Virus record (IMG/VR): IMGVR_UViG_3300048026_001019
Coordinates: 1-52,640 of that record
Direction: 5' to 3' (one strand)
From: a virus
Taxonomy: Duplodnaviria > Caudoviricetes
DNA: 52,640 nt
A model generated the notes under the pieces. It saw nothing but the letters and a program-made list of their open reading frames with translations, was not told the DNA's origin and ran no database searches. Position numbers and translations under genes: made by a program. Shown here piece after piece: positions 5,888 to 52,497 of this stretch (its first letter is position 1; each line of letters begins with the position of its first letter).

Positions 5888-5916
5888 ATACATTCTCCAT
5901 GTTACAAATATCATTT

Positions 5917-5945: not shown

Positions 5946-5947
5946 CC

Positions 5948-14023: not shown

Positions 14024-14286
14024 TATAATGTGTACCCCGTTCCATTAAATCCTGTGTTTTCTATATATGTATTTAACTGATTATAACCGCCAATTACTTC
14101 ACTATTGATAATAATTTGTGGCATTGTTCGGGCAGATGGTGCTATTTCTAGCAATTCTTCTCTAGTCAAATCGTCACCTAATGTTCTTGTAGTGTACTTT
14201 ATATCCATTCTGTCTAATAAAGCTTTTGCTTTATCACAGTACGGACACATTGGTTTTGATAATACAACAACATTTGGGGAACTCAT
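14023..14286 (-). CDS. Glutaredoxin
   Basis: CPYC, RTMPQI, IGGY; follows nrdB. Confidence 0.93.
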   Translation of the reverse strand: MSSPNVVVLSKPMCPYCDKAKALLDRMDIKYTTRTLGDDLTREELLEIAPSARTMPQIIINSEVIGGYNQLNTYIENTGFNGTGYTL

Positions 14287-15386: not shown

Positions 15387-15454
15387 AGTGGCCCTACTTC
15401 CTCTTATTGTCTATGCTCTTTTAGTTTATACTATATTTAACAAATTGTCAAGTA

Positions 15455-17773: not shown

Positions 17774-17797
17774 GTTCTCTCCTGTTGTTTTCAATAT

Positions 17798-31562: not shown

Positions 31563-32497
31563 TCAAACAGTGAACTTACGCTTTCTTCGTTAGTAACTCT
31601 ACGAATAGCTTCACCGAATAGTGTTCCAACACTTACTTCACGCAATTTCTTAAGTTTACTAAAGTCCCTAGTGTTGATACTGTCAGTAACTACTAGTTCA
31701 TCAAGTACACTCTTTTCTACACGTTTAACTGCTTCTCCACTTAGCACTCCGTGTGTAATATAAGCTCTAACACTTAATGCTCCTGCATCCATAATAGCTT
31801 GTGCCGCACCACATAGTGTTCCTCCGCTGTCTACAATGTCATCTACTAGAATAGCATGCTTGTCTTTCACATCACCAATTAGTGCCATTACTTCACTAAC
31901 ACCTGCTTGTGGTCTACGCTTATCAACGACAGCAATATCTCCATGAAACATATCAGCAAACTTTCTAGCACGAACTGCACCGCCTGCATCAGGCGAAACA
32001 AAGACAGTGCCTTGATTAACATTAACATGTGATCTAATATCATCTGCAAATACGATACGGCTTGTTAAATCGTCCACTGGAATATCAAAGAACCCCTGTA
32101 TTTGTCCTGCATGTAAATCCATTGTAAGTATTCTATCTGCGCCAGCTGTTGTAATTAAATTAGCAACCAACTTAGCAGTAATAGGTGTACGACTTGCACT
32201 CTTACGATCTTGACGAGCATAACCAAAGTAAGGAATAACTGCTGTAATACGACTAGCACTACTACGCTTGGCAGCATCAATCATTATAAGCAATTCCATT
32301 AAACTATCGTTTACAGGAGTTGATGTTGAGTTACAAATAAAAACATCTTCTCCCCTTATATTTTCTAAAAACTCTACACTGGTTTCTCCGTCCGCAAAGT
32401 TACTTACTTTAGCAGGAACTAATGTGGCAAAACAGTGTTGTGCGATTCTATCAGCTAACTCCGGATTCGCATTGCCAGTTATTATCTTCATCTTCAA
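31559..32497 (-). CDS. prs: Ribose-phosphate pyrophosphokinase
   Basis: [44 protein letters not shown]. Confidence 0.96.
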
Positions 32498-33294
32498 GTG
32501 TCACCCTTCCTTACGTTATTATTATATTGAATAGCTTCTCGTATCAACGACAAGTCTATATCAAAGTCCTGTGCTGTTTTTAGAATTGCTTGGGTGTCTT
32601 TGGGAAAACAGTGACCTCCGAAACCCCGTTCTGATGTTACTCTGCTGTGGCTATCTCCTATTCGGTTGTCGTCTGTTATTAAGGGTATGACTGCTTCGTG
32701 ATCAACTTCAGCGGCTTTGCATAAATCATAAACTTGATTAAAGAAAGCAACTTTTGTAGCTAAAAAGCTGTTACGAAAATATTTAGCTAATATCAAATCT
32801 CTTGGATGTGCGTGTTTAATCTTTACTACTTTGTTGGGTCTGATCATTACTCTTTCTAATATTCTTTCCCAAAAGTAATAGTGTCCACCTCCCATATAAA
32901 AAGTTTCAGTAGCAAGCATATCTTCTACTGCATGTTCTGCTCTTATAAACTCAGGGGAGAATGTAATTGTATGTGTTGGGAACAAACTTTCTATTTGTTC
33001 CCAACCTTCAAGACTGATTGTGCTTTTGATTAGTACCGGAGTTTTTGGATCTGTATCTGTGAGTACATCAAAGACATTTGACATATCACATTCACCAGTT
33101 TCTGCTTGCGGAGTACTTACGCAGATTATTACTCCTTCAGCGTTTGTGTCACTGATTTTTAATCCGCATGTAAGATCTTTTCCTAGTATTCTATAATACT
33201 CAGGATCAACTATTTTGGTAGTTACACCACACTCTTTTAGATAGGCTTCGACAGCTCTACCAACATGGCCATACCCTGCAATAGTTATTCTCAT
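32494..33294 (-). CDS. Short UDP-glucose/GDP-mannose dehydrogenase family protein
   Basis: [29 protein letters not shown]; lacks the C-terminal domain. Confidence 0.85.
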
Positions 33295-35574: not shown

Positions 35575-35627
35575 TGTGGCCGTACACTGACGAAGAATCA
35601 GATTGGCTAGATGATAAAAAGAGTTGA
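35574..35627 (+). CDS. 17-aa peptide overlapping the AOX start
   Basis: GAGG RBS, TAATG coupling; MWPYTDEESDWLDDKKS*. Confidence 0.4.
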   Translation: MWPYTDEESDWLDDKKS

Positions 35628-36204
35628 CATCGCCGATAGTATAGCGTTTAGGCTTACAATGATGTTTAGATGGTTTGCAGATACTTTTTTTGCAAAGCGT
35701 TATGGACACAGAGCAGTAGTACTTGAAACTGTTGCCGGAGTACCAGGTATGGTAGCAGGCATGTGGAATCACTTACGTAGCCTAAGAAAGATGCAACCTG
35801 ATGAGCGAGGCTGGATTAAGACTTTACTAGACGAAGCTGAAAACGAACGAATGCATTTAATGATCTTCATTGAAATTGCAAAACCAAATATCTTTGAAAG
35901 ATTATTAATTGCATTTGCTCAGCTTGTTTTTTGGCACTTCTATCTAGTTTTATACATTTTCTTTCCAGGCACTGCACACAGGATGATAGGATACTTTGAA
36001 GATCAAGCTGTTATTTCATACACACAATATCTAGATGAAATAAAAAGTAGCAAGGTTGAAAATATTCCTGCTCCGCAAATTGCAATAGATTATTACGGAT
36101 TGAAAAAAACTGCAAAGTTAAGTGATGTAATTAAAAAAGTAAGAGCTGACGAGCAAGGGCATGCAGATGTTAATCACGGAATGGCTGACCAAATAAACAA
36201 ATAA
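35611..36204 (+). CDS. aox: Alternative oxidase (ubiquinol oxidase)
   Basis: LETVAGVPGMV, EAENERMHL, FEDQA..SY, RADEQGH di-iron motifs. Confidence 0.95.
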   Translation: MIKRVDIADSIAFRLTMMFRWFADTFFAKRYGHRAVVLETVAGVPGMVAGMWNHLRSLRKMQPDERGWIKTLLDEAENERMHLMIFIEIAKPNIFERLLIAFAQLVFWHFYLVLYIFFPGTAHRMIGYFEDQAVISYTQYLDEIKSSKVENIPAPQIAIDYYGLKKTAKLSDVIKKVRADEQGHADVNHGMADQINK

Positions 36205-37925: not shown

Positions 37926-38353
37926 GCAATCCTCTCCTTTGATTCTACTCTGCGATTGTACTCGTTAACCGACCCCGGATACCTCCAAGACCATATTGCT
38001 ACGCCTAACATAAAAATGCCTGAGTAAAGAACTGCCTTGATATTGCCTGTAGTAAACCATGTAAATGCTAATGTACTTGACATTACAATTATCATAGCAT
38101 ATTTTGCCCATGTTGGAAAAACTTTCTTTGTGGTCCAATTTGTTAGGAACTCTCCAAACCATGGATGGTTGTATAACCATGCATGCATCCGTGGAGAACT
38201 CTTAGCAAATGCCCAAGCAGCCATTACTAGAAAAATACTAAATGGTATTCCTGGAGTAACGAAACCGATGTAGGCCATTCCTACACAAAAGAATCCAAAC
38301 CCTTGATAAAGATATTTTTTAATTAAGTCCATGTTGTTCCTTTCTGCGATCAC
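37913..38353 (-). CDS. YbaN/DUF454 inner-membrane protein
   Basis: G..TPGIP...F...AAWAFAKSSPRMHAWL.NHPWFG. Confidence 0.85.
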   Translation of the reverse strand: MIAERNNMDLIKKYLYQGFGFFCVGMAYIGFVTPGIPFSIFLVMAAWAFAKSSPRMHAWLYNHPWFGEFLTNWTTKKVFPTWAKYAMIIVMSSTLAFTWFTTGNIKAVLYSGIFMLGVAIWSWRYPGSVNEYNRRVESKERIAWLR

Positions 38354-39543
38354 TTTATAACCTTAACCAATGCGTCTACTAAATCGCTCATCATAGCGTC
38401 AGTGTGCAAAGGAGTTGGTGCGATCCTTAACCTTTCTGTTCCTTCTGGAACAGTTGGGTAGTTAATGGGTTGTATATAAATCCCATATTCATTAAGCAAC
38501 TCGTCACTAATTTCTTTGCAACGCTTTGCATCTCTTATCATTACAGGAACTATGTGTGTGCTTGCAACATCTAGCACTTCTATGTCAACTTCTGCTAACA
38601 TAGACTTTAACTTAGATGCACGTTCTTGATGTTGAACACGCAACTCATTATGATCCTTTAAATATTTAATTGAAGCTAAGGCACCAGCACAAATCACAGG
38701 ACTCATGCTGGTAGTGAATATAAATCCACTAGCTACTGATCTGATTGCGTCTATGACAATCCCTTCACCAGCTATGTAACCGCCTTGTACTCCAAACGCT
38801 TTGCCTAAAGTTCCGTTGACTATATCAACTACACCTTCTTGTCCGACTTCTTCTAGCTTACCGGCCCCTGATTCCCCGTACAAGCCTACAGCATGTACTT
38901 CGTCTAGATATGTTATGGCCCTATACTTTTCGGCTAGCTCGCAAACACCTTTAATTGGACTTACGTCACCATCCATGCTATACACAGATTCAAATACAAT
39001 ACATGGTATCATATCGTTAGCTACGCAATCTTGCAATTTTTCTTCTAAGTCGCTCAGATCATTGTGCTTCCATCTTGCCTTAGGAGCACCACTATGTCTT
39101 ATACCTTCTATCAGGCTGGCATGGTTCATGTCGTCACTTAAAAACATAATGTTGGGAATGATTTTGCTTAGAGCAACCAGTGTCCACTCATTGGCAACAT
39201 ATGCACTTGTATACAATAAAGCACTTGAAGTACCATGCAATTTTGCAAGCTCATGCTCTAGTGCTACATGGTAGTGCGAAGTACCGCCAATGTTTCGCGT
39301 ACCACCTGATCCACTTCCTGTTTGATCTAAGGCAGTATGCATTGCATCAATGACGACTTTATTCTGACCCATACCGAGGTAATCATTACTACACCAGTTT
39401 ACAATATTTTTTATTGCATAAGGCCCGTACCAAATTGATTTAGGAAAGTCACCGCGTTCACGAAGTATATCGTTAAACACTCTGTACCTACCTTGCTGTT
39501 TTAGGTCCCGTAGAACCTGTTCAAATGGATCCTTGTCTATCAT
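38350..39543 (-). CDS. hemA: 5-aminolevulinate synthase
   Basis: WCSNDYLGM, GSGGTRNIGGT, NHAS, FESVYSMDG, DEVHAVGLYG, GTLGKAFG, FIFTTS, INYPTV..ERLR. Confidence 0.95.
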   Translation of the reverse strand: MIDKDPFEQVLRDLKQQGRYRVFNDILRERGDFPKSIWYGPYAIKNIVNWCSNDYLGMGQNKVVIDAMHTALDQTGSGSGGTRNIGGTSHYHVALEHELAKLHGTSSALLYTSAYVANEWTLVALSKIIPNIMFLSDDMNHASLIEGIRHSGAPKARWKHNDLSDLEEKLQDCVANDMIPCIVFESVYSMDGDVSPIKGVCELAEKYRAITYLDEVHAVGLYGESGAGKLEEVGQEGVVDIVNGTLGKAFGVQGGYIAGEGIVIDAIRSVASGFIFTTSMSPVICAGALASIKYLKDHNELRVQHQERASKLKSMLAEVDIEVLDVASTHIVPVMIRDAKRCKEISDELLNEYGIYIQPINYPTVPEGTERLRIAPTPLHTDAMMSDLVDALVKVIK

Positions 39544-40306: not shown

Positions 40307-41137
40307 ATGACGCAACTAATATCGCCGAAGAAGTTTACAAACACCGTTGACCTTTTAAGGTCATTTTTTTTGGACAAAGGATTTTTAGAAGTCCATACGC
40401 AGAATAGGCTTAGTATACTAGCCGCATGCGAAGATCCATTTAATGTAGCAACATATAATTACGCAGGCCAAGTTTGGCCATTGCCGCAAACAGGCCAGAT
40501 GTGGCTAGAACATGAATTATTAAGTAGCCCCGATAGTAAGGGGTTTTTTTGTGTCTCCACTTCCTATAGACAAGAACCAAACGCTATTCCGGGTAGACAC
40601 GATATAATATTTCCAATGTTTGAATTTGAAATGCCAGGTAGTGTTGATGATCTTAAAGCAATGGAGTATGAACTATGTGAGTACTTGGGCTTTGATGCAC
40701 TAACAGAAAAAACATATAGAGAATGGCAACAGCATTGGGGTATAAGTGCAGACACTGAAATGGATGCAAGTCACGAACTAGCAATGGAGATGAACTTTGG
40801 TAGTTGTTTGATTACAAACTTTCCAGAGCTAACATCACCTTTCTGGAACATGGCTAGAAACGATGATGGCAATACAGCAAAGAAAATGGATGTTATACTA
40901 GGCGGTATGGAAACTATTGGATCAGCAGAACGCTCATGCGATGTTGATATGATGCGTGATACATTCCATAGTATTGTAGATGGAGAGTATAGCGAATTAC
41001 TATACAAACTATTTGGCAAAGAACGTGTAGAAGCAGAGCTTGAAAAGTTTTTAGAGTTTGACTTTTTTCAAAGAGTAGGCGGAGGTATTGGTATTACACG
41101 TATGATACCTGCACTAGAAAAGATCAACAAGATATAA
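40307..41137 (+). CDS. Class IIb aaRS-like catalytic core (AsnRS/AspRS-related) lacking the anticodon-binding domain
   Basis: Motif 1 FFLDKGFLEVHT, LPQTGQ, motif 2 SYRQE..RH..FPMFEFE, ETIGSAER, motif 3 GGGIGITR; 276 aa, beginning just before motif 1. Confidence 0.88.
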   Translation: MTQLISPKKFTNTVDLLRSFFLDKGFLEVHTQNRLSILAACEDPFNVATYNYAGQVWPLPQTGQMWLEHELLSSPDSKGFFCVSTSYRQEPNAIPGRHDIIFPMFEFEMPGSVDDLKAMEYELCEYLGFDALTEKTYREWQQHWGISADTEMDASHELAMEMNFGSCLITNFPELTSPFWNMARNDDGNTAKKMDVILGGMETIGSAERSCDVDMMRDTFHSIVDGEYSELLYKLFGKERVEAELEKFLEFDFFQRVGGGIGITRMIPALEKINKI

Positions 41138-42020: not shown

Positions 42021-42355
42021 TCATAACTTTCGCCAGTTTCACGAAAGAAGTTTTCACTCCAAAACGCTTTGTCATCTATCCAAATATCGTAGTTCTCTTT
42101 TTCACCTACGCTTAGTTCATGGAACTTTGCACCCCATTTTACTAATTGGTTATTTGTTAGATTGTAATAGTCTACTCCACTAACACAACCTCTAGCTGTC
42201 ATATATTTAATTGTGTGTCCTGCGTCAAATAGTGCATTTACTTTTGCAATACGATCTGGCATTGGTATATGATTAGCATAGTCTTTTTTGCCACCGCTGT
42301 CAGGTATAATTACTTCTTTACAGATGGTGCCATCAATATCAATTACGTACTTCAA
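42017..42355 (-). CDS. Small HAD-superfamily phosphatase
   Basis: IDIDGTIC, YMTARG, WIDDKA. Confidence 0.85.
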   Translation of the reverse strand: MKYVIDIDGTICKEVIIPDSGGKKDYANHIPMPDRIAKVNALFDAGHTIKYMTARGCVSGVDYYNLTNNQLVKWGAKFHELSVGEKENYDIWIDDKAFWSENFFRETGESYE

Positions 42356-43536
42356 TTCAATAATCCTTCCAAAGTTTGTAGTACTTGCTCACTGTTATCA
42401 GCTCTTCCTGTAACAATAGCATCTTTAACACATTGTCTAGTAAACTCTAACGGAAACCTTGCTCCGTCTTTGTCCATACCTGTGTTAACTAGATAGACAT
42501 TAGCTTTATGTGTGTCTATTTTATCCATTAATAAATCGCTATATTCAGAAACTGCCCTAGGCATAAAGGGCGAACCATAGCAAGGACTAAACAAAGGTTT
42601 GATTTCGTTTGTTCCTGCTTCTGTTCCTGGCATTTGACTAGTGTATCCTGTTTCAAAAAACCTACGCACTGTGTTGCCGCTTATTTTACTAATAGGTGGA
42701 AACATGCCTTTGGCATCCATTGTTAAAAAGAAAATGTTAGTAGGGTGATCAAAATCTGTTGTGTCATATGCATTTTCAACAAGGTTTAAAGGATAACTTA
42801 GCCTAGCATTAGCGGCGCCTGGGTTTTCTTCAACCAAACAATTGTTTGACCTTGCTAGCTCTACTGCATTAAAAATAGTTGGATGTGTTTCAGGTGTTAG
42901 CCCTTCGCTCTTAGCATAACACCCTGTTTCTATCATATTAACGCCTTCGTAGTTCCATGCTATTTCGTCATCACCAATTAGTTTGTAATCAGGATCGCTA
43001 GACAATGTAGTTTTACCAGTGCCACTAAGACCAAACATAAGATTAGTACTGTCCTTGTAAGTAAATGCACTACAATGCATAGGAAGTACTTTATGTTCTG
43101 GTAATTCAAAACTTACAATACCAAACACGCCTTTCTTAATTTCTCCTAAGAACGTAGTGCCTGCAATTAGCATTACATGTTCGTCTAGATGTACGTGTAT
43201 TTTAGGCTTTGACATTTCAATGTCTGTGTTATGTAGTATTGTCCAGTCAGCTGTATATTGTAATGGGTTATCAACCACAGGAAACATATTGCGTACAAAT
43301 TGTGCATGCCTGTCGTCATTTGTTTCTACTCTAAAACAAAGGCCGCAAGTATAAAACACAAGATTATGATTGTATTCTAATTCATACATATCGTTATGGA
43401 AGTCTTTAAAGTCTTGCTCATTACCAATCTTATTATACTTAGGCCTAGTAAGATCTAATGCTTCAGTACGATGTCCAAAAAAGTATTTGTTCTCCGGACT
43501 TCTACCTGTCGGGTGTGTCGTTATATTAATATTCAT
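42352..43536 (-). CDS. pckA: ATP-dependent phosphoenolpyruvate carboxykinase, compact form
   Basis: TGRSP, GEIKKG, LPMHCSA, FGLSGTGKTTLS, IGDDE, GCYAK, FSPCYGSPF, YLVNTG. Confidence 0.92.
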   Translation of the reverse strand: MNINITTHPTGRSPENKYFFGHRTEALDLTRPKYNKIGNEQDFKDFHNDMYELEYNHNLVFYTCGLCFRVETNDDRHAQFVRNMFPVVDNPLQYTADWTILHNTDIEMSKPKIHVHLDEHVMLIAGTTFLGEIKKGVFGIVSFELPEHKVLPMHCSAFTYKDSTNLMFGLSGTGKTTLSSDPDYKLIGDDEIAWNYEGVNMIETGCYAKSEGLTPETHPTIFNAVELARSNNCLVEENPGAANARLSYPLNLVENAYDTTDFDHPTNIFFLTMDAKGMFPPISKISGNTVRRFFETGYTSQMPGTEAGTNEIKPLFSPCYGSPFMPRAVSEYSDLLMDKIDTHKANVYLVNTGMDKDGARFPLEFTRQCVKDAIVTGRADNSEQVLQTLEGLLN

Positions 43537-44497
43537 TTATTAATCCTATATGAGAAGCTGTATCGGCCATTCTATTACTGAATGCCCATTCGTTGTCGTA
43601 CCAGCATAATACTCTAACTAACTTCCCACAAACAAGTGTACTGTCGGCTGCAAAGATACAACTTTCGTTTGTAGTATTAAAGTCCATGCTTACTAATGGT
43701 CTAGTTTCAAAACCAATAATTCCTTTCATTTCATTTTCGCTTGCTGTTTTTACAATATCATTTACTGTATCAACATCAACATCTGCTTCGCTATAAAAGT
43801 GTAAGTCAATACAACTTACATTCGGTGTAGGTACTCTTATAGCACTTCCAATAATTTTCCCTTCCATTTCAGGTAGTACCGACTTAAGAGCCTTAGCGGC
43901 TCCTGTTGTAGTTGGTATCATACTCATTGCGGCCGCCCTAGCACGATATAAATCATCATGCCTCCTATCGATTGTAGCTTGGTCGCCTGTGTAGCTATGA
44001 ATTGTAGTCATTGAACCACGTATGATTCCTAAACTATCATTTAAAACTTTTACAATTGGGGCAAGGCAGTTTGTTGTGCAACTTGCACTACTAATGATAC
44101 TATCTTTTACTGATATATCATTATGATTAACACCATAAACAACTGTACGGTCTACATTCTTTCCCGGCGAACTTATGAGAACAGTCTTTGCACCGTTTTG
44201 AAGATGTACACTAGATTGATTCCCATCTCTAAACTGCCCTGTGCATTCTAACAAAACATCAACACCTTTCCAATTTAATAGATTAATATCCCTTGTGTGT
44301 GAGTATGTTGTAGTGTCTTTTAGTTTGCCCTTCCATCTGCCATGCACACTATCAAAATTTAACAAATGATTGTTTACATGTTCATCGCCTGTGGCGTTTA
44401 TTCTAACTAGTTCAAGGTCGTCTCTTTCGTCTGTGATGATTCGGGCTAGGCAACGACCTATCCTTCCAAAACCATTTATTCCAACTTTTGTTGTCAC
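43526..44497 (-). CDS. gap: Glyceraldehyde-3-phosphate dehydrogenase, type I
   Basis: GINGFGRIGR, ASCTTNCLAP, TTIHSYT, TTGAAKA, RVPT, WYDNE. Confidence 0.93.
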   Translation of the reverse strand: MTTKVGINGFGRIGRCLARIITDERDDLELVRINATGDEHVNNHLLNFDSVHGRWKGKLKDTTTYSHTRDINLLNWKGVDVLLECTGQFRDGNQSSVHLQNGAKTVLISSPGKNVDRTVVYGVNHNDISVKDSIISSASCTTNCLAPIVKVLNDSLGIIRGSMTTIHSYTGDQATIDRRHDDLYRARAAAMSMIPTTTGAAKALKSVLPEMEGKIIGSAIRVPTPNVSCIDLHFYSEADVDVDTVNDIVKTASENEMKGIIGFETRPLVSMDFNTTNESCIFAADSTLVCGKLVRVLCWYDNEWAFSNRMADTASHIGLINEY

Positions 44498-45292
44498 TTA
44501 TGTACTCGCTTCTGTTATATCCTTTATGTTCATGCTCAGAGTCATATCAAATTCTACATCTGTTTGATGATGAAACAAACCTTCACTTAGGGCTCTACTA
44601 AAACTTGCAGTCATATTATCATTTTGTGCAAGTCGACGACATGCTTCCTCAGTAGAGTATCCTCCACTTAGACCAACAACTGCATGTACACTTTTATGTC
44701 CTATAAGGTCTTTATACATATTTGGTTGTTCAGGTAGCGTTAATTTAAGAATACATTTACCATCAAATTCATCTAAACGTTTCTTAAGTCCGTGTAGCAA
44801 GGCTATCTCTAGTCCTTGCTTGTGTTCATGTTCTATTGGAACTTCAGGCTCTACTATTGGCATAAGTTCCCATGCATGTATTTTTTTAGCTAGCTCAAAC
44901 TGCTGATCCAATACACTGTCTACTATTTCTTGAGTCTTAACAATACTACGCATCTTAGTACCTACACAGCCTTTGGCAACTGCATATGTAAGTATTTCAT
45001 TAGTATCAAAGTCTTTAAGTGTACCGTCATCTGCACAGCCACTGTCTATTTTTAGATAAGGGTGAATACCTTTTTGTCTAAGAATAGGAACCATACCTCT
45101 ATCAACTGTGTCACGATACAAAATAGCCGCCCATATACTATCATTATTAAAGTCTGGAGAGCTTACCATACGCAAACGCATATCATGTACTTTATCCATT
45201 TTATCTTCTTCAGTATACGCTTGTCCGTATCGTTCTAGTACTCCTCCTGTTGAACCACCACTGTGATCCATTGCGGCTATAAATCTACTCAT
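44498..45292 (-). CDS. Class I fructose-bisphosphate aldolase
   Basis: FIAAMDHSGGST, LKIDSG, GTKMRS, PIVEPEV, LKLTLP, LSGGYS, SFSRAL; ATGA-coupled start at 45292. Confidence 0.9.
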   Translation of the reverse strand: MSRFIAAMDHSGGSTGGVLERYGQAYTEEDKMDKVHDMRLRMVSSPDFNNDSIWAAILYRDTVDRGMVPILRQKGIHPYLKIDSGCADDGTLKDFDTNEILTYAVAKGCVGTKMRSIVKTQEIVDSVLDQQFELAKKIHAWELMPIVEPEVPIEHEHKQGLEIALLHGLKKRLDEFDGKCILKLTLPEQPNMYKDLIGHKSVHAVVGLSGGYSTEEACRRLAQNDNMTASFSRALSEGLFHHQTDVEFDMTLSMNIKDITEAST

Positions 45293-45798
45293 ATATAAGT
45301 TCTCCATGCTTCATGTTTAATTGGCATATCTAATTGTTTTCTTTTTGCAACTAGATCATAATAAGTTGGGGTGTATGGTTTATTTTTAGGCTTCATACGT
45401 GTTTTATTACCTTTGAGGGTATTACATGGACTACAAGCGGCAACCATATTATCCCATTTAGTTTTACCGCCTAGGCTCAACGGAATGACATGGTCCATGG
45501 TTAGTTCTTTTCTTGTGTGGGTAGTGTTGCAGTATTGGCAAGTGTATAAGTCGCGGATGTAAAGATTAGTTTTTGAGAATCTTGGACGGCCACGCCGTCG
45601 TTGCATTTCTTTCAGCATAACTACCGCAGGAACTTTTGTTTCCCAACTAGGACTGCTTACCATCCAATCATCGTACCAATCAAGTACAACTACCTTGTCC
45701 ATCCATACATAAGTAATTGCTTCTTTCCAATTGATAACTGAAAGGGGAATGTAACTAGTAGGCTGTGCGTCTGCGTTTAATAATAGTACATCACTCAT
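45289..45798 (-). CDS. HNH endonuclease
   Basis: VLLLNAD, RD.YTCQYC, TMDHVIP..GG...W.N...C..CN..K. Confidence 0.9.
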   Translation of the reverse strand: MSDVLLLNADAQPTSYIPLSVINWKEAITYVWMDKVVVLDWYDDWMVSSPSWETKVPAVVMLKEMQRRRGRPRFSKTNLYIRDLYTCQYCNTTHTRKELTMDHVIPLSLGGKTKWDNMVAACSPCNTLKGNKTRMKPKNKPYTPTYYDLVAKRKQLDMPIKHEAWRTYI

Positions 45799-45799
45799 T

Positions 45800-45976
45800 T
45801 CAAACCATAATATCTAATTTATTACCAAGATGCCAAGCACCGTTGTGAACACGCTGATGCTCTCTAAAATCTTTTATTGCTTGTTCTGTTGTTTTTGGAA
45901 GTGTATGCTCGTGAAGCTTTGTTAGACTAAGTGTCTCTGCCACATAATTGTGAATAGAAATTGGGCTTATAGACAT
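45800..45976 (-). CDS. 58-aa hypothetical protein (not in ORF track)
   Basis: GGAG RBS; MSISPISIHNY...HLGNKLDIMV*. Confidence 0.6.
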   Translation of the reverse strand: MSISPISIHNYVAETLSLTKLHEHTLPKTTEQAIKDFREHQRVHNGAWHLGNKLDIMV

Positions 45977-46671: not shown

Positions 46672-47199
46672 CTAGAAATATTGTGCAGTGGTCTCTGATG
46701 CTACTAGGTTTAGAGCTCTTCTCCACTGCTTTAATCCCGTACTATTAAATAGCATAGCATCATTCGGTGTAGCTGTCAACCATTGTTTTTGTTTTTTTAT
46801 TTCGTGATTTAATTGTCCTGGTGCCCAACTGCATATACCTGTTAGGAATCTAAATGCATTTGGTTTGTTGTCCATTGCTATTTTTTCGATCATAAGCTCG
46901 TCACTACTTACTGCAAACCCTCCAGGTAGATACATAGTGTTAGTAGAGCTAAAGTCATCTGTATGAATCATTACAAGAGCAGAAGTATTAAGAGGTCCTC
47001 CTTGATATAGAACATCAGCACTAGGCCATTCAATTCCTCTATCTCTCATTATTTTGTTTAGATCAATTTGACAAGGTTTGTTTACTATAAATCCAACAGT
47101 ACCACTATCATGGTGTTCGGTTAGAATTATAACACTCTTTCCAAATAATCCGCTTTCAAGTTTAGGGTGTGCTACGAGTATTTTGCCGGGAGCTAACAT
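46672..47199 (-). CDS. YqgE/AlgH (UPF0301) family protein
   Basis: LVAHP, F.KSVI...EH...G..G..VNKP, GGP, G...WAPGQL..E. Confidence 0.88.
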   Translation of the reverse strand: MLAPGKILVAHPKLESGLFGKSVIILTEHHDSGTVGFIVNKPCQIDLNKIMRDRGIEWPSADVLYQGGPLNTSALVMIHTDDFSSTNTMYLPGGFAVSSDELMIEKIAMDNKPNAFRFLTGICSWAPGQLNHEIKKQKQWLTATPNDAMLFNSTGLKQWRRALNLVASETTAQYF

Positions 47200-47761: not shown

Positions 47762-48058
47762 ATGAAGATTGAAGATATACCTGCAGGTGAAAGTTGGGCC
47801 TGTCGCTTTAAAGTAACAACATTTGTAGACAAAGATTCTGGTCTTGCTGTACAAGATAAAAATGTACAACCAGGACAAGCACATAAAGGTGTTCCAGGAG
47901 ATTACGAAAGTATTGGTTTGATTGAAGTGCGAGATATCGAGAATCGTCTTGTTCAACTTCTAGATACCGTAACAGATATTACATTCAAAGTAAATTTTGA
48001 TGATTGCTGGGACGTAGATAAAGTTGAATGGATTAATGAACCGACCGAATTGGCATAG
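47762..48058 (+). CDS. Hypothetical protein
   Basis: AGGAGG RBS before ATG 47762. Confidence 0.65.
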   Translation: MKIEDIPAGESWACRFKVTTFVDKDSGLAVQDKNVQPGQAHKGVPGDYESIGLIEVRDIENRLVQLLDTVTDITFKVNFDDCWDVDKVEWINEPTELA

Positions 48059-48620
48059 AATAAACTTAGATGTAACAGATGCTCTAAAGATTAATCTAAA
48101 AGATTATATCCTCAGCGACCCATACCGCGAAGGCGAACATGCACTTTATATAGAAGGAAAAGCAGGCGTATGGACATTAAATCCTGATACTATATTTAAA
48201 CAGGACTTTCTTAATGATCTAGGTATAAAAGTAGATCTAGCACAAATATTTTACAGAGCTCCACATTATCAACATCCAGGGGCCCATGTTGATCTTGGAC
48301 AAACAGGAGAACTGTATGGTGCAGGGTTAAATTGGACAGTTGATCCGGATGATGCTGAGATGACTTGGTATGAAATGCCTAATGTAGAAGGTACAAATAC
48401 CAAAAGAAGTGAAACAGATCAAAACATGGAATGGCCACTAGAACAATTGACAGAAATAGATAGGTTGTGCATAGGGCAAACTCCTACACTTGTACGCACA
48501 GATGTTCCTCATACTGTAGATATGGGTAGTAATGAACGTTGGTTGATTAGTGCAAGATTTTTATGGCACTGGTCATGGGACGACTATACTAAAACATTAA
48601 AAGATAGGATTGTACAATGA
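48036..48620 (+). CDS. Cupin-fold / 2OG-Fe(II) dioxygenase-like protein, paralog 1
   Basis: YQHPGAHVD, LNW, LVRTDVPHTV, RWLISAR. Confidence 0.7.
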   Translation: MNRPNWHRINLDVTDALKINLKDYILSDPYREGEHALYIEGKAGVWTLNPDTIFKQDFLNDLGIKVDLAQIFYRAPHYQHPGAHVDLGQTGELYGAGLNWTVDPDDAEMTWYEMPNVEGTNTKRSETDQNMEWPLEQLTEIDRLCIGQTPTLVRTDVPHTVDMGSNERWLISARFLWHWSWDDYTKTLKDRIVQ

Positions 48621-49378
48621 AAAACTGGGTAAGACTTGATATCGATACCAAAGATGCAATTAATATTGATGTTAAGAAGCACTGCTTTGACAACACAGAT
48701 AGAGCTGACGTATTCATAGAAGGACACGGGGGTATTTGGACTTTTGGTAAAGATGAAATATTCAGCCAAACATGGGTAGACTATGTAAAAGAAACATGCC
48801 CATTTTTAGACGTGACTGGCGCACTTATATTTTGGAGAGCTCCAGGTTATCAACACGCTGGCGCACATATAGACGTAGCCCCTAACAATAGCCCTAGTAG
48901 GGTAGAGGGTGTAGAATATGAAAACGGATTTCATGCAACTAATTCTAGCGATAGCATGGATGTCAACGACTTTTACCCTGTAGTTAGTAGCTACAACTGG
49001 ATACTAGATGAAGGCGATGATAGTGCTATGACATGGCACGAGCCTCTAGACACTGCAAAAATAGAACTAAAGAAATTTACTGACGCTGTACACTATGATG
49101 AAATACCTGTGAGCGAATGTAAAGAAATAGATAGATGCACAATAGGACACGACAAACTTGTAATGGTTAGAACAAATGTACTACACAACGTAGACATGGG
49201 CCAACAAGAGCGTTGGGCTATTAGTGCTAGATGTATTATGAATTGGGCTACATGGGATGAAGCTGTTGACAAACTACAACCATGGATCGTACAGCCTAAA
49301 GAATTTGGTGGACCAACTGGTGCTGAGCCTACACGCTTTGGCACATGGGAACACAAAGGTAGAGAGGTTGACTTTTAA
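48617..49378 (+). CDS. Dioxygenase-like paralog 2 with C-terminal DUF1674 (SDHAF4-like) motif
   Basis: YQHAGAHID, VRTNVLHNV, RWAISAR; tail PKEFGGPTGAEPTRFGTWEHKGREVDF. Confidence 0.75.
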   Translation: MKNWVRLDIDTKDAINIDVKKHCFDNTDRADVFIEGHGGIWTFGKDEIFSQTWVDYVKETCPFLDVTGALIFWRAPGYQHAGAHIDVAPNNSPSRVEGVEYENGFHATNSSDSMDVNDFYPVVSSYNWILDEGDDSAMTWHEPLDTAKIELKKFTDAVHYDEIPVSECKEIDRCTIGHDKLVMVRTNVLHNVDMGQQERWAISARCIMNWATWDEAVDKLQPWIVQPKEFGGPTGAEPTRFGTWEHKGREVDF

Positions 49379-49575
49379 TGTTTAGTAAACAGTGTAAGGC
49401 ACATTTAGAAGATGTAGGTGAAACCCGTTGGCAACACTTCAAGCATGCAATGTGGGTGTCATGGCAACTAGAAAAGGCAGCATATGCTGTAGCATTACAT
49501 GCGATTGCTCCTAGATGGTTTAAAACTTATGCAACTGACAAATGCAAAGAAGTATTAGAAAGTAGGAAAAAATGA
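49378..49575 (+). CDS. Small protein, DUF6356-like
   Basis: HLEDVGET.WQH..HA...HAIAP..F...A. Confidence 0.65.
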   Translation: MFSKQCKAHLEDVGETRWQHFKHAMWVSWQLEKAAYAVALHAIAPRWFKTYATDKCKEVLESRKK

Positions 49576-49790
49576 ATGTAACAGACTTAGTAGTATTAGT
49601 AGTTTCTCTATGGGGACAAACAGCAGAAGGAGAGTGGAAGTACATTGGTAATCAATATGTACAGCAACAACCAATGCCATTAACAGAATGTAGCGAACTA
49701 ATTGCCGCAAAGAATTGGAAAAAGTTTGAAAACAATCCTTATTACAAAATTCAACTAGCATGTTATTATGCCGGAGAGAAAAATGATTGA
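49572..49790 (+). CDS. Small protein with hydrophobic N-terminus and two Cys
   Basis: Coupled ORF. Confidence 0.6.
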   Translation: MNVTDLVVLVVSLWGQTAEGEWKYIGNQYVQQQPMPLTECSELIAAKNWKKFENNPYYKIQLACYYAGEKND

Positions 49791-49884
49791 TGTTATAATT
49801 GGCAATTTAATATTTTGGCCAATTTACTTTTGGGTATGCACAATACCCTACAAAATGTTTCAAGCAGCAATAGACAATGCGTAA
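49783..49884 (+). CDS. 33-aa hydrophobic peptide
   Basis: GGAG RBS; MIDVIIGNLIFWPIYFWVCTIPYKMFQAAIDNA*; overlaps both neighbours. Confidence 0.55.
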   Translation: MIDVIIGNLIFWPIYFWVCTIPYKMFQAAIDNA

Positions 49885-50521
49885 TTGGGTAGAAACAGAT
49901 CTAAGTGTTGAAAATGCATTTAGTGTAGACCCTCGAGAATATCTACGCAATCACCCTGAGTTTATACAAATAGCCACAGGCGGAGCAACTGTTTGGCAAT
50001 GCGATCATAAATTATTACTTACAAATGAGTTTACTGCATTACTTAACAACTATTTTGAATGTAACATTACCGGTGTACTTGTATTTCATAGGAAAGCAGG
50101 ATATCAACACCCTGGTGCTCATATAGATGTAGATCCACAAGAGGGATTAAATCTTCCTGTAACTTTAAGCTACAACTGGGTACTAGAGGAAGATAATAAT
50201 CCTATGGTGTGGTACAAGCCCTGGTGGGATCCTGAAAACATGGATCAAGCTAGCCAAGCGGCTAAAGGACAACTACCTTTCCCTGGGCTAGAATCTAGTA
50301 GCCCAGATGCAGGCTCAATGACTTATCAGGAAACACCTTGTGAACTACTAGAACGTGATAGCGAACACTGTCTTAGTCATAAAGTAGTTACTGTATGTAG
50401 AACTAACGTTCCGCACAATGTTGATATGATATCTGATAAAGATAGATGGTGTGTTACTGCCCGCAGTTGGGGCGATCAAGACCCTATGTGGTCACAAGTA
50501 TATAACAGTCTAGTTAATTGA
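49877..50521 (+). CDS. Dioxygenase-like paralog 3
   Basis: YQHPGAHID, YNW, RTNVPHNV, RWCVTAR. Confidence 0.7.
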   Translation: MRNWVETDLSVENAFSVDPREYLRNHPEFIQIATGGATVWQCDHKLLLTNEFTALLNNYFECNITGVLVFHRKAGYQHPGAHIDVDPQEGLNLPVTLSYNWVLEEDNNPMVWYKPWWDPENMDQASQAAKGQLPFPGLESSSPDAGSMTYQETPCELLERDSEHCLSHKVVTVCRTNVPHNVDMISDKDRWCVTARSWGDQDPMWSQVYNSLVN

Positions 50522-52129
50522 TGCCCACAGATCGCTAAGGCGTCTGTTATGAGTACACATTTCAAAATGCTTGTTCCTAGCTAGATCTAAAAAGCCTGGT
50601 CCTGCTCCGTTTTGTTTAAGTGCTTCAAGTGATTGAATTCCTTCAAGTTTACGTCTTATATAAGGTACAACTATTTCATTATGCTGTTGTCCATTATGAA
50701 TATTCCACATCATAGGACGTAGCTTTAATTCTAATAGTTCTTTGGTGCTTTTAACAAAAGGAAGATAGTTTAACAACTGAAAACTACTAACTAACTGTTC
50801 ATTCCTACAAAAGTCACCATCTTGCCATTCTTTTACAAATTTGCTTGCTTGTCCTATGTCAGCCCAATCAGCTTCCCAATATAAACTTTTGTTATCAAAC
50901 TTATGTTGGGTTCCTCCTGCTTCTCTATCATAGTAACTATGTATTTCTGCTAGACGTACAGGATCGGTTATTTCTCTATAACCATGCTGACGCCATTCTT
51001 TTGAAAAAACGCTAGTGGTTGCTGTATTGGTATCTAAGCTAATCTCTAGAGGCCACCAATCCCAATTTTGGTCTCCCCAATTTTCTCTAAGCCAATCTTC
51101 TGAACGTTGCCAACTGTCTGGAGTTTCATGTGGTAACCCTGCAATCATTCCACAACTGCCTCTGTATAACCCAAGCTCACCCATCATATGCTCACGCATA
51201 TCCATTAGACCTTGTTTGATACGCTTAGACGGCATACCTTTGGCTACTGCTTTACCTGCGTCATCGTTAAATGTTTCTACACCATAAAAATGATTCCATA
51301 CCCTAGCTCTACTGAGTAGTTTAAGCTGTTGTGGTTTCGCAATTGTTAGATCCATACGTATAAAGCAAGCAAAGTTTGGTTCAAAAGGTAGGCTCTGAAC
51401 AACATCTCCTAACATTTCTAGCTTGCTTTCCCTATCGTTTAGTGTATCATCAGCTAGTATATAATTAGTAGTGCCAAAGCGTTCATAGTTATCCATTAGC
51501 TCTGCACGTAATAGTTCTGCTTCAGTTGAAGTATCTTCTTTGACACCTAAAAATGCATAGTTACAGTATTTGCAACGAAACTTACACCCACGACTGAGTT
51601 CAACAGTTAGCATTTCATAGGGTTGAATATAGTCATCATCTCTATAGTCTATGCTGTAGTCACCTAGGTTCATAGCTTGATAGTCTGTGTTGCAGTCAAT
51701 AAACAGCCCACCTAGAATATCTTTGCCTTTGGGTTTAGGACCATTGTTGAACAGCCAGTTTACTGTGTCAGGAACTGCTTTTTCAGCATATCCAAACAAC
51801 ATAGCATCCATGCCTAAGTCAAGCTGAAAGAACTGCTGTCCGCCTGCGATATATTTACGTCCTGGGTAAGCCTCTTTGAGTTGTTCTACAAACTGTTTTG
51901 CCCACCATGGTTTCATCCATGTGTAGGATATAGCAAACAATACAGTGTCCTCACCTACAATAGCATCAAGATACCTTCGTAGATCAGCTTCTGGCCAGTC
52001 AGCTGCCCAATCAACCACAGTTGCCCTCCAGCCCATACTTTCTAGTTGATTAGCAAACCTATACGCACCTGAAGTTCTTCTTTTGATTTCTTGATTGCTG
52101 TTAAAAATTACACAGTGTTTTATATTCAT
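50510..52129 (-). CDS. Radical SAM protein with B12-binding-like N-terminal domain
   Basis: ELSRGCKFRCKYC, ADDTLND, GVET, IAGLPHET; start moved to 52129 below a TAAATA motif. Confidence 0.85.
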   Translation of the reverse strand: MNIKHCVIFNSNQEIKRRTSGAYRFANQLESMGWRATVVDWAADWPEADLRRYLDAIVGEDTVLFAISYTWMKPWWAKQFVEQLKEAYPGRKYIAGGQQFFQLDLGMDAMLFGYAEKAVPDTVNWLFNNGPKPKGKDILGGLFIDCNTDYQAMNLGDYSIDYRDDDYIQPYEMLTVELSRGCKFRCKYCNYAFLGVKEDTSTEAELLRAELMDNYERFGTTNYILADDTLNDRESKLEMLGDVVQSLPFEPNFACFIRMDLTIAKPQQLKLLSRARVWNHFYGVETFNDDAGKAVAKGMPSKRIKQGLMDMREHMMGELGLYRGSCGMIAGLPHETPDSWQRSEDWLRENWGDQNWDWWPLEISLDTNTATTSVFSKEWRQHGYREITDPVRLAEIHSYYDREAGGTQHKFDNKSLYWEADWADIGQASKFVKEWQDGDFCRNEQLVSSFQLLNYLPFVKSTKELLELKLRPMMWNIHNGQQHNEIVVPYIRRKLEGIQSLEALKQNGAGPGFLDLARNKHFEMCTHNRRLSDLWASIN

Positions 52130-52182
52130 TATGCAATATTTATCGTCGATAAATACTATACAACCAGCAAAGAGGTATTTTA

Positions 52183-52497
52183 ATGAGCGATGATACAACC
52201 ACAGTAGACGAAGTAGATATTCAACAAGTAGTAGAAGCATTACTAAACATCTGTGGGCAGGCCGCAGAAATGCAACTAGACGAAGAAGCTAGAACTGCTA
52301 TATACGACATGTGTGATGCTGTAGCGGCATTCCATGATATTCCACGTTTTGATGCTGTTATTGAACAAGACGAAGAAGGCAACAGTCGAGTCAGCTATTA
52401 TGGCTCAGAGGTAGTAGCAAACATGGAAGACAAACCCAAAACCTCACTCAAACTAGTGGTCAACAACGGTGATGATGATCCAGAAACCATACACTAA
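52183..52497 (+). CDS. Acidic hypothetical protein
   Basis: GAGG RBS; C-terminal LKLV motif. Confidence 0.65.
   Translation: MSDDTTTVDEVDIQQVVEALLNICGQAAEMQLDEEARTAIYDMCDAVAAFHDIPRFDAVIEQDEEGNSRVSYYGSEVVANMEDKPKTSLKLVVNNGDDDPETIH

What the first reader, a model, noticed from the sequence alone, without database searches (positions are those of the whole stretch)
49295..49378. SDH assembly factor (DUF1674/SDHAF4) motif fused to a phage dioxygenase
Seen: only paralog 2 ends in PKEFGGPTGAEPTRFGTWEHKGREVDF. Established: this matches the DUF1674/Sdh8 signature (E.GGP.G.EPTRYGDWE.KGR..DF) of alphaproteobacterial and mitochondrial proteins that bind the complex II flavoprotein; 2OG dioxygenases release succinate. 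Inference: the tail docks the enzyme on SdhA, either to channel succinate or to modulate complex II, which fits the AOX and PckA rewiring.
Basis: partly seen in the sequence, partly recalled or inferred. Interest (0 to 1): 0.7.

Follow-up and report, generated by a model that had tools for sequence, protein, structure and literature searches.

The report
Phage enzyme carrying SDHAF4-like tail
A marine jumbo phage gene really does end in the short peptide that cells use to grip the succinate dehydrogenase flavoprotein, and related phages carry the same peptide alone or on quite different proteins, so it looks like a portable tool aimed at the host's respiratory complex II.

Summary
ORF 48617-49378 (+), 253 aa, ends in a 27-residue DUF1674/SDHAF4 motif (Pfam 35 bits, cut-off 23.5). 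The motif aligns to the C-terminus of human SDHAF4 in PDB 8DYD. It keeps all four residues shown by mutagenesis to matter for SDHA binding, including the terminal Asp-Phe.

The fusion is not a one-off. It recurs in 8 of 62 metagenome loci plus two partial ones, with carrier domains down to about 70% identity. Downstream genes differ between loci, and tail pN/pS is about 0.04-0.3.

The carrier (residues 1-225) belongs to an unnamed viral family. It has a double-stranded beta-helix model and invariant H84, D86, N127, H190 and R199, so it is 2OG-oxygenase-like, but it matches no Pfam family.

The tail is a portable C-terminal module. Close relatives encode it as a free-standing 69-aa gene 3 kb away. 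Other marine viral contigs carry it on a class-3 lipase, an Asp/Asn-hydroxylase-like protein, an NDUFS6-type zinc finger and small proteins.

Succinate channelling is therefore unlikely. The best reading is a carrier-independent mimic of the host assembly factor that binds free SdhA. Binding itself is untested.

The parts
48617..49378 (+). Fusion gene, 253 aa: DSBH oxygenase-like domain plus SDHAF4/DUF1674 tail, with the stop codon at 49376-49378
   Evidence: ORF list and sequence. Full-length fused orthologues P0001 (96%), P0002 (83%) and P0009 (71%) carry PF07896. 8 of 62 metagenome loci were flagged as fused.
48617..49291 (+). Carrier domain (residues 1-225): member of an unnamed, mostly viral family with a predicted double-stranded beta-helix. 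Invariant H84 (48866-48868), D86 (48872-48874), N127, H190 (49184-49186) and R199 (49211-49213).
   Evidence: 138-member alignment. AlphaFold model with pLDDT 90.6. Foldseek hits to MINA53, NO66, PHD2, AlkB, P4H and cupins, with TM at most 0.45. 280 representative clusters at E<=0.001. No Pfam hit in any of 138 members.
49295..49375 (+). SDHAF4/DUF1674 C-terminal peptide (residues 227-253). E229 (49301-49303), E237 (49325-49327), D252 (49370-49372) and F253 (49373-49375) correspond to human SDHAF4 E84, E92, D107 and F108.
   Evidence: Pfam match. Alignment to 8dyd_C. Roles of the four residues in PMC10784507. Disordered in the model, pLDDT below 50 for 228-253. 19 invariant positions across 18 tails on different carriers. 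pN/pS about 0.04-0.3.
48024..48620 (+). Paralogue 1 of the carrier family, 198 aa, no tail
   Evidence: 40% identity to the fusion protein; ends at the domain boundary.
49877..50521 (+). Paralogue 3 of the carrier family, 214 aa, no tail
   Evidence: 30% identity; no tail.
49378..49575 (+). Downstream gene (DUF6356, 65 aa). Its ATG overlaps the fusion gene's TAA. This neighbour differs in other fused loci.
   Evidence: Pfam PF19883, 45 bits. Downstream genes compared.
45289..45976 (-). HNH endonuclease gene (45289-45798) abutting a 58-aa ORF (45800-45976). In sister phages a free-standing 69-aa DUF1674 gene lies between the orthologues of these two genes. The slot is empty here.
   Evidence: Synteny BLAST. 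ORFs of L008, L022, L029 and L054 and of L073. HNH Pfam match.

Best explanation
The gene encodes a folded, Fe(II)/2-oxoglutarate-oxygenase-like beta-helix domain. Its last 27 residues are a disordered SDHAF4-type peptide.

That peptide is an autonomous, portable C-terminal module of marine phages, present as one copy per record. It occurs either as a small stand-alone protein or grafted onto the C-terminus of whatever gene it landed on. Here that gene is the middle one of three oxygenase-like paralogues.

By homology, after infection the tail binds the host's free, flavinylated succinate dehydrogenase flavoprotein (SdhA). It would bind as cellular SDHAF4 does: two conserved glutamates make the first contact, and the terminal Asp-Phe with its free carboxylate plugs the dicarboxylate site and shields the FAD. 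The phage would thereby take over the assembly step of complex II. The outcome could be more assembly and less flavin-derived damage, or sequestration of SdhA.

Shown: the motif, its conservation, its recurrence, its mobility between carriers, and purifying selection on it.
Inferred: SdhA as the target, the mode of binding, and that the function does not depend on the carrier.
Unknown: the direction of the effect on complex II, and the host.
For: 1. Motif identity. PF07896 matches above its cut-off. The tail aligns end to end with human SDHAF4 residues equivalent to 82-108 and with Rhodobacter RhR2.
2. Functional residues. E229, E237, D252 and F253 correspond to SDHAF4 E84, E92, D107 and F108. 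Mutating those abolishes or weakens SDHA binding or SDHAF2 displacement. Only the C-terminal 34-43 residues of SDHAF4 become ordered on SDHA (PMC10784507, passages read).
3. Disorder. The tail is disordered in the model (pLDDT below 50 for 228-253), as isolated SDHAF4 is.
4. Recurrence. 3 of 33 protein clusters are fused. 8 of 62 metagenome loci are fused, plus L060 (a 5'-cut fused ORF) and L062 (tail only at the contig start). These come from 8 assemblies. Downstream neighbours differ between fused loci.
5. Selection. pN/pS is 0.04-0.29 for tail pairs with pS of 0.3 or more.
6. Mobility within the lineage. Sister phages of the same lineage (81-86% identical proteins) have a tail-less orthologue and a free-standing 69-aa DUF1674 gene 3 kb away on the other strand. 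That slot is empty in the fused genomes. The two states are complementary in 4 of 4 records that show both positions: the window and L012 against L022 and L029.
7. Mobility between carriers. The same tail is found on Lipase_3 (P0186, seen on 129 contigs, with tail-bearing and tail-less members in one 90% cluster), on Asp_Arg_Hydrox (L098, a complete 342,607-bp phage), on the zf-CHCC zinc finger (6 loci), on a 175-aa unknown protein, and on 69-, 76- and 84-aa proteins. It always sits at the extreme C-terminus. 19 tail positions are invariant over 18 sequences.
8. Copy number and target. There is one DUF1674 match per record in 5 of 5 viral records. No SdhA C-terminal domain was found in 0 of 4 viral records, including the complete one. 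No FAD_binding_2 match exists in the window. Any SdhA target must therefore be the host's.
9. Expression hint. A 481-nt contig from an RNA library (48907-49387, no differences) spans the domain-tail junction and the stop codon. This is weak, because DNA carry-over is not excluded.
Against: No binding evidence of any kind was obtained here.

The host is unknown. The RNR is 71% identical to that of T4-like cyanophages. A 335-kb relative sits in a Marinimicrobia MAG. DUF1674 was found in only 1 of 81 sampled genomes of that phylum, and that one match is the phage contig itself. The host may therefore lack its own SDHAF4, and its SdhA may be of a different type: the MAG's flavoprotein ORF is 662 aa.

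The phage tails read F-G/N-T-W-E where the human sequence aligned reads Y-G-D-W-E. This could reflect a different target.

Two or three of the carriers are oxygenase-like or have an unassigned N-domain: this family and Asp_Arg_Hydrox, plus the unassigned 175-aa protein. A carrier-specific link is therefore not excluded.

One tail (L108) lacks the first conserved Glu-x-Gly-Gly-Pro segment.
Confidence: 0.6

Rival explanations
1. Address-tag model. The tail's job is to deliver its carrier to SdhA, so that the oxygenase-like domain hydroxylates or otherwise modifies SdhA or something bound to it. In other phages the lipase or hydroxylase would be delivered the same way.
For: The best structural look-alikes of the carrier are protein hydroxylases: MINA53, NO66, PHD2 and P4H. 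Two carriers are oxygenase-like: this family and Asp_Arg_Hydrox, which matches Pfam above its cut-off. The fused form has persisted while the carrier diverged to about 70% identity.
Against: Stand-alone forms with short, unrelated N-termini exist in the closest relatives. Tail-bearing and tail-less versions of the same carrier coexist at about 85-94% identity for both the DSBH protein and the lipase, so the carriers work without the tail. Oxygenases are very common phage genes (recalled), so their presence among carriers may be chance. Foldseek TM-scores are low, at most 0.45.
Confidence: 0.2
2. Succinate channelling. The tail tethers a 2OG dioxygenase to SdhA so that the succinate it releases is handed directly to complex II.
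For: 2OG oxygenases release succinate (established chemistry). The carrier has the HxD...H...R signature. PckA and AOX in the window suggest rewiring of the TCA cycle and respiration.
Against: In the solved complexes the terminal Asp-Phe occupies the dicarboxylate site, and the ordered region clashes with SDHB. A bound SdhA would therefore be unassembled and closed to succinate. The same tail sits on a lipase, a zinc finger and small proteins, and is free-standing in sister phages.
Confidence: 0.03
3. The tail binds a target other than SdhA. Candidates are another flavoprotein of the same fold (fumarate reductase FrdA, L-aspartate oxidase NadB) or an unrelated host protein. The phage version has drifted to a new specificity.
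For: The phage tails share a Thr where the human sequence aligned has Asp (F-G-T-W-E against Y-G-D-W-E). The host is unknown and may lack DUF1674. [quoted passage not shown]
Against: All four experimentally validated SDHA-contact residues, and 19 positions overall, are invariant. The simplest reading is that the target is retained.
Confidence: 0.14
4. Artefact: a one-off loss of a stop codon, a chimeric assembly join, or a non-functional read-through.
For: None found. The region downstream of the gene is hypervariable, so recombination does occur there.
Against: The fusion is seen in 8 independent assemblies and 3 protein clusters. Synonymous changes dominate in the tail. The free-standing gene of relatives lies 3 kb away on the other strand, not adjacent. 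A DNA contig covers the whole stretch with no differences, though it may come from the source sample.
Confidence: 0.02

Closest known systems
SDHAF4 / Sdh8 / DUF1674 (PF07896): complex II assembly factor of mitochondria, with putative homologues in alpha- and gamma-proteobacteria (human complexes 8DYD and 8DYE; Rhodobacter RhR2, 2K5K)
   Same: The C-terminal 27 residues match above Pfam's cut-off. The tail ends in Asp-Phe at the very C-terminus. The E84, E92, D107 and F108 equivalents are conserved. The tail is predicted to be disordered on its own.
   Different: It is encoded by phages. Here it is the tail of a 253-aa protein with a folded enzyme-like domain, rather than a 60-110-aa disordered protein. 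It reads F-G-T-W-E where the human sequence reads Y-G-D-W-E. It moves between unrelated carriers. Binding to SdhA is not shown.
Fe(II)/2-oxoglutarate-dependent oxygenases with a double-stranded beta-helix (PHD2, MINA53/NO66, AlkB, prolyl 4-hydroxylase; Pfam 2OG-FeII_Oxy families, Asp_Arg_Hydrox)
   Same: The predicted fold matches. H84-x-D86 ... H190 is invariant, and R199 lies nine residues after the distal His, the spacing recalled for PHD2.
   Different: None of 138 members hits Pfam at E<=0.1 in a meaningful way. The profile finds no PDB sequence. hhalign against the Asp_Arg_Hydrox-like phage protein finds nothing. Foldseek TM is at most 0.45. Substrate and activity are unknown.
Virus-encoded respiratory and TCA-cycle auxiliary genes, such as PTOX/AOX in cyanophages and SDH subunits in the giant algal virus PkV RF01 (recalled, not checked here)
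   Same: A virus carries a component aimed at the host's respiratory chain. The window also has an AOX-family gene.
   Different: What is carried here is a 27-residue assembly-factor peptide that mimics a chaperone, grafted onto other proteins. It is not an enzyme or a structural subunit.

Membership tests
DUF1674 / SDHAF4 (PF07896) | Sequence match to the family profile above the curated cut-off | tested here: met
   35 bits for the protein and 38.6 bits for the tail, against a cut-off of 23.5; profile positions 23-50 of 50. 38.9 bits in the genome scan.
DUF1674 / SDHAF4 (PF07896) | Motif at the extreme C-terminus, ending in the strictly conserved Asp-Phe with a free carboxylate | tested here: met
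   ...REVDF is followed by TAA. D and F are invariant in 18 of 18 aligned phage tails. The requirement is described in PMC10784507.
DUF1674 / SDHAF4 (PF07896) | Conserved glutamates equivalent to human E84 and E92, which contact SDHA R171 | tested here: met
   E229 and E237 align to them and are invariant in 18 of 18 tails. One further tail, L108, lacks the first.
DUF1674 / SDHAF4 (PF07896) | Small, stand-alone, intrinsically disordered protein | tested here: not met
   The window protein is 253 aa with a confidently folded 225-residue domain. Only the tail is disordered. Sister phages do have 69-84-aa stand-alone forms.
DUF1674 / SDHAF4 (PF07896) | Binds the flavinylated SdhA/SDHA subunit and aids complex II assembly | not testable with these tools
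   Needs biochemistry. The one complex-prediction job gave no verdict (see Tried and rejected).
Fe(II)/2OG-dependent oxygenase superfamily | Double-stranded beta-helix core | tested here: inconclusive
Fe(II)/2OG-dependent oxygenase superfamily | His-x-Asp/Glu ... His iron triad plus a basic residue for the 2OG C5 carboxylate | tested here: met
   H84, D86, H190 and R199 are invariant in 138 of 138 family members. Their geometry in the model could not be inspected, because no coordinates were available.
Fe(II)/2OG-dependent oxygenase superfamily | Significant match to a curated family model (Pfam 2OG-FeII_Oxy*, Asp_Arg_Hydrox, JmjC, Cupin) | tested here: not met
   No Pfam hit for the protein. 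Among 138 members, only one weak 2OG-FeII_Oxy_6 hit at E 0.049. No PHROG hit. The PDB profile search was empty.

The most novel reading that the evidence does not exclude
Marine phages have turned the 27-residue active-site plug of the complex II assembly factor SDHAF4 into a portable warhead or address tag. They graft it onto unrelated enzymes (oxygenases, a lipase, a complex-I-type zinc finger). Its purpose would be to capture the host's free SdhA: either to shut down or re-route succinate oxidation during infection, or to bring the carrier enzyme to SdhA to modify it. In the window's protein, the oxygenase domain would then act on SdhA itself.
Probability: 0.18. Interest if true: 0.85.

Novelty: new variant of a known kind. 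Interest (0 to 1): 0.66.

Why it matters
SDHAF4 is the least understood of the complex II assembly factors, and its bacterial homologues are uncharacterised. Finding its minimal SDHA-binding peptide in phages gives three things:
- A natural definition of the minimal functional unit of SDHAF4. The peptide is conserved at 19 positions while being moved between at least seven carriers.
- A new class of phage auxiliary function, aimed at the assembly of a respiratory complex rather than at an enzymatic step.
- A compact, testable reagent, a roughly 30-residue peptide predicted to plug SdhA.

It also fits a gene set in the same window that would turn TCA intermediates into nucleotide precursors: AOX, PckA, GAPDH, an aldolase-like gene, PRPP synthetase, IMPDH/GMPR and RNR. 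That makes the direction of the effect on complex II a concrete question.

Tried and rejected
- Complex prediction. SDHA_PARDE plus FAD plus residues 210-253 (with alignment A4) gave no verdict: score 0.00 against a mark of 0.32, and the controls were not run. It is evidence neither for nor against binding.
- Structure libraries. pdb_via_wide and pdb_via were not on the machine, so only Foldseek was used.
- Cultured phages. tblastn of the fusion protein against 50,697 phage records found nothing. The lipase fusion found only tail-less lipases at less than 60% identity.
- PHROGs. No family matched any of the five local proteins.
- Link to Asp/Asn hydroxylases. hhalign of family profile A2 against the Asp_Arg_Hydrox-like tail carrier gave probability 0.2, so the link is rejected. 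The 40% tblastn match is driven by the shared tail.
- Host inference. The pattern scan of species genomes gave two hits. One was a chance match in a high-GC Chloroflexota contig. The other was a 335-kb phage-like contig binned in a Marinimicrobia MAG. DUF1674 is otherwise not found in the 80 other sampled genomes of that phylum, so the bin is not taken as host evidence.
- Single origin of the fusion. In the carrier tree the fused label needs at least 3 changes, but well-supported branches force only 1, so this is left undecided. Rows left out of the tree: loci with truncated orthologues and distant paralogues (L034, L052-L070), and L015 and L053, which are 5'-cut.
- RNA runs. X16 and X17 contigs stop before the tail, and parts without cover are not interpreted.
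- Literature. 'DUF1674' gave 2 irrelevant papers. 'SDHAF4' with 'bacteriophage' gave 4, none about phage genes. 'succinate dehydrogenase assembly factor' with 'auxiliary metabolic' gave 0. 'jumbo phage' with 'marine' and 'alternative oxidase' gave 0. Only listings were seen for these. For PMC10784507 I read the passages returned. Its Supplementary Fig. 6c, on the bacterial homologues, could not be seen.
Full report
WHAT IS THERE

The window is an IMG/VR virus record of 52,640 bases with about 37-38% G+C. CheckV rates it as about 16% of a genome. The + strand ORF 48617-49378 encodes 253 residues and ends in ...WIVQPKEFGGPTGAEPTRFGTWEHKGREVDF followed by TAA.

Pfam DUF1674 (PF07896) matches residues 226-253 at 35 bits, against a cut-off of 23.5. 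The match covers the conserved C-terminal half of the profile, positions 23-50 of 50. Against PDB sequences, the same 27 residues align without gaps to the C-terminus of human SDHAF4 (8dyd_C, E 1.4e-5) and to the Rhodobacter protein RhR2 (2k5k_A, E 4.4e-5). The two flanking paralogues (48024-48620 at 40% identity, 49877-50521 at 30%) stop at the domain boundary.

THE TAIL KEEPS THE RESIDUES THAT MATTER

I read passages of Sharma et al. 2024 (PMC10784507). They report the following:
- Isolated SDHAF4 is disordered.
- Only its C-terminal 34 residues (43 in the binary complex) become ordered on SDHA.
- The last two residues, D107 and F108, sit in the SDHA active site against H407 and R451. D107 acts as a dicarboxylate mimic and F108 occludes the substrate position.
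- Mutating D107 or F108 prevents displacement of SDHAF2.
- The E84N mutant no longer binds detectably, and E92N is weakened.
- The ordered region would clash with SDHAF2 and with SDHB.
- D107 and F108 are strictly conserved, including in putative alpha- and gamma-proteobacterial homologues.

From the alignment, counted back from F108, the phage residues E229, E237, D252 and F253 are the equivalents of E84, E92, D107 and F108. In the AlphaFold model of the whole protein, residues 228-253 have pLDDT below 50, while the rest of the protein is confidently folded. The tail contains no in-frame ATG, GTG or TTG (read), so it is made only as part of the fusion.

THE FUSION IS REAL, RECURRENT AND SELECTED

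Among 33 homologous protein clusters, three carry PF07896: P0001 (96% identity, 253 aa), P0002 (83%, 260 aa) and P0009 (71%, 254 aa). The other 30 are 164-233 aa and carry no Pfam domain; most cover 88-89% of the query and end at the domain boundary.

The metagenome scan returned 62 loci. My script and ORF reading sort them as follows:

| Class | Loci | Count |
|---|---|---|
| Fused | L009, L010, L011, L012, L014, L015, L031, L032 | 8 |
| 5'-cut fused ORF | L060 | 1 |
| Only the last 24 tail residues, at a contig start | L062 | 1 |
| Tail-less orthologue with its C-terminus inside the contig | | 34 |
| Ends exactly at the contig end | L013 | 1 |
| Cut before the C-terminus | | 6 |
| Distant paralogues only | | 11 |

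The fused contigs come from eight assemblies.

The gene after the fusion differs between loci. It is DUF6356 in the window and L009, a 182-204-aa protein in L012 and L032, and something else in L014. The tail therefore travels with the gene and not with a neighbour.

Tail codons differ mostly at synonymous sites. For pairs with pS of 0.3 or more, pN/pS is 0.04-0.29.

Sequencing runs add two points. A virome DNA contig covers the whole stretch without differences, although it may be the source sample. A 481-nt contig from an oligo-dT RNA library spans 48907-49387, across the junction and the stop codon, without differences. This is a weak hint of expression, because DNA carry-over is possible.

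In the carrier tree, the fused state needs at least three changes, although well-supported branches force only one. L031 and L032 have near-identical carriers but different tail variants. Recombination therefore shuffles tails.

THE CARRIER

Residues 1-225 belong to a family with 280 representative clusters at E<=0.001, most of them 190-230 aa. The nearest Atlas clusters are 83-100% viral.

In a 138-member alignment, H84, D86, N127, H190 and R199 are invariant. This is the His-x-Asp ... His triad with an Arg nine residues after the distal His; the match to PHD2 spacing is recalled, not tested.

With this alignment the model reaches pLDDT 90.6. Foldseek returns almost only double-stranded beta-helix proteins: MINA53, NO66, PHD2, AlkB, a bacterial prolyl 4-hydroxylase and seed cupins. 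Probabilities among the rows listed are 0.94-1.0, but TM-scores are only 0.28-0.45.

No curated family claims the carrier:
- No Pfam or PHROG hit for the protein.
- Nothing meaningful for any of 138 members.
- No PDB sequence hit with the family profile.
- No profile match to the Asp_Arg_Hydrox-like phage protein.

'Dioxygenase' is therefore a reasonable functional guess, not a family assignment.

THE TAIL IS A PORTABLE MODULE

This finding changes the interpretation.

First, in the closest relatives the paralogue-2 orthologue is tail-less. These are L022, L029, the 93-kb IMG/VR contig behind L006/L008, L054, and the 335,231-bp contig behind L073. The L073 contig's proteins are 81-86% identical to the window's. 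In these relatives a 69-aa DUF1674 gene lies about 3.1 kb away on the opposite strand, between the orthologues of the HNH gene (45289-45798) and the small ORF 45800-45976. In the window and in L012, which are fused, that slot is empty. The two states are complementary in 4 of 4 records that show both positions. Thirteen further loci that cover the HNH side show neither form within the fetched stretch.

Second, a search for longer proteins with the 69-aa query found a class-3 lipase of 282 aa ending in the same tail. It is seen on 129 contigs. Its 90%-identity cluster holds both tail-bearing members (282-292 aa, and a 245-aa member whose N-terminal part is missing in the alignment) and tail-less members (252-265 aa).

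Third, a degenerate pattern for the tail's core found 15 stretches in IMG/VR. Twelve are true tails:

| Carrier | Loci or source |
|---|---|
| Asp_Arg_Hydrox-like protein (PF05118), 229 aa | L098, in a complete 342,607-bp phage with terminal repeats; L112 |
| NDUFS6-type zinc finger (PF10276), 81-86 aa | six loci |
| Protein of unknown family, 175 aa | L108 |
| Small protein, 84 aa | L099 |
| Lipase | one of the twelve hits |
| Small protein, 69 aa | one of the twelve hits |

A 76-aa form (P0185/P0201) adds another carrier.

Across 18 tails on these carriers, 19 positions are invariant, and the motif is always the last thing before the stop codon. Nucleotide identity between tails on different carriers is 65-85%, so these are old, selected copies and not recent pastes.

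Each of five viral records has exactly one DUF1674 match. None of four viral records, including the complete genome, encodes an SdhA C-terminal domain. The window has no FAD_binding_2 match. A flavoprotein target would therefore be the host's.

HOW IT MOST LIKELY WORKS

The simplest account is that the roughly 29-codon module is the functional unit. It needs only a free C-terminus. It does what the C-terminus of SDHAF4 does: it binds the host's free, flavinylated SdhA, covers the FAD and occupies the dicarboxylate site.

Whether that helps complex II assembly and limits flavin-derived damage, or sequesters SdhA, cannot be decided from sequence. The window's other genes are:
- AOX (35611-36204)
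- PckA (42352-43536)
- GAPDH (43526-44497)
- an aldolase-like gene
- PRPP synthetase
- IMPDH/GMP reductase
- both RNR subunits
- an aminotransferase

. These genes would fit a flow from TCA intermediates through oxaloacetate and PEP to pentoses and nucleotides, with quinol re-oxidised by AOX. In that picture, more SDH activity is useful. This is inference only.

Succinate channelling is disfavoured for two reasons. A tail bound in the SDHAF4 manner closes the active site and is incompatible with SdhB. And the tail does not need an oxygenase partner. Two carriers are oxygenase-like, and the nearest folds are protein hydroxylases.

HOST AND CAVEATS

No cultured phage is close. The RNR is 71% identical to that of T4-like cyanophages, but a conserved structural-region protein is only about 25% identical.

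The 335-kb relative is binned in a 'Candidatus Neomarinimicrobiota' MAG. That MAG's only DUF1674 is on the phage contig, and DUF1674 was found in 1 of 81 sampled genomes of the phylum, namely that same contig. Among 14 control genomes only Caulobacter has DUF1674. The host, and hence the exact target, is unknown. Nothing here measures binding.

COMPARISON AND NOVELTY

The tail is a member of DUF1674/SDHAF4 by sequence and position. The protein as a whole is not a typical member, because it is a folded enzyme-like protein with the motif appended.

I found no paper on phage-encoded DUF1674/SDHAF4 in four searches. I rate it a new variant of a known kind: a known assembly-factor peptide, newly seen as a mobile, phage-borne C-terminal module on several carriers.

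Noticed in passing
L073 (G001:C57, 335,231 bp); also G001:C79, C78, C67: A species-representative MAG labelled 'Candidatus Neomarinimicrobiota' holds a 335-kb contig, plus smaller ones, that are syntenic with this window. Their proteins are 81-86% identical to the window's. This is probably a jumbo phage genome binned with a bacterium, present as two strains (C57 and C79 both match).
   Followed up: partly
window 1043-2182, 14283-17794, 31559-33294, 35611-36204, 38350-39543, 40307-41137, 42352-45307: Unusually dense set of metabolic genes for a phage fragment: IMPDH/GMP reductase, RNR alpha and beta, PRPP synthetase, UDP-glucose dehydrogenase-like, AOX-family oxidase, aminotransferase, a class II aaRS-like protein, ATP-PEPCK, GAPDH and a class-I aldolase-like protein. 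Together they suggest gluconeogenesis towards nucleotide precursors.
   Followed up: partly
L100:3788-4030 (+); also L102, L105, L109, L110, L111: Viral 81-86-aa proteins join an NDUFS6-type zinc finger (zf-CHCC, PF10276; a complex I accessory/assembly motif) directly to the SDHAF4 tail (a complex II assembly motif).
   Followed up: partly
L098:1500-2186 (-) in G085 (complete, 342,607 bp, terminal repeats); L112: An Asp/Asn beta-hydroxylase-like protein (PF05118) of 229 aa carries the same tail. It is the only DUF1674 match in that complete jumbo phage genome. That phage is only distantly related to the window's phage.
   Followed up: partly
L094:5971-6849 (+) and neighbours 5141-6056: The lipase-tail fusion lies directly after two overlapping small genes. 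One encodes a membrane-anchored protein and the other a lipoprotein-like protein, which look like a spanin pair (by eye, not tested). The phage type is different, with ThyX-like and class II RNR-like genes (also by eye, not tested).
   Followed up: no
window 49379-49876 and the equivalent stretch in L012, L014, L022, L024, L029, L032: The stretch between paralogue 2 and paralogue 3 is a hypervariable cassette site. It holds different small genes in each relative, and a 384-aa gene in L024.
   Followed up: partly
window 30777-31562 (+): The window has its own class-3 lipase (261 aa, no tail). It is 39% identical to the tail-bearing lipase of other phages.
   Followed up: yes
window 46672-47199 (-) and 50510-52240 (-): An AlgH-like (DUF179) gene and a 576-aa radical SAM gene flank the paralogue cluster. 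Both are conserved in synteny in all relatives examined. Their role is unknown.
   Followed up: no
L031 and L032: Two contigs with near-identical carrier domains have different tail variants (...FGTWESKGREVDF against ...FNTWEVKGREIDF). The second variant also occurs on carriers 96-98% identical to the window's. Tails therefore appear to recombine independently of the carrier.
   Followed up: partly
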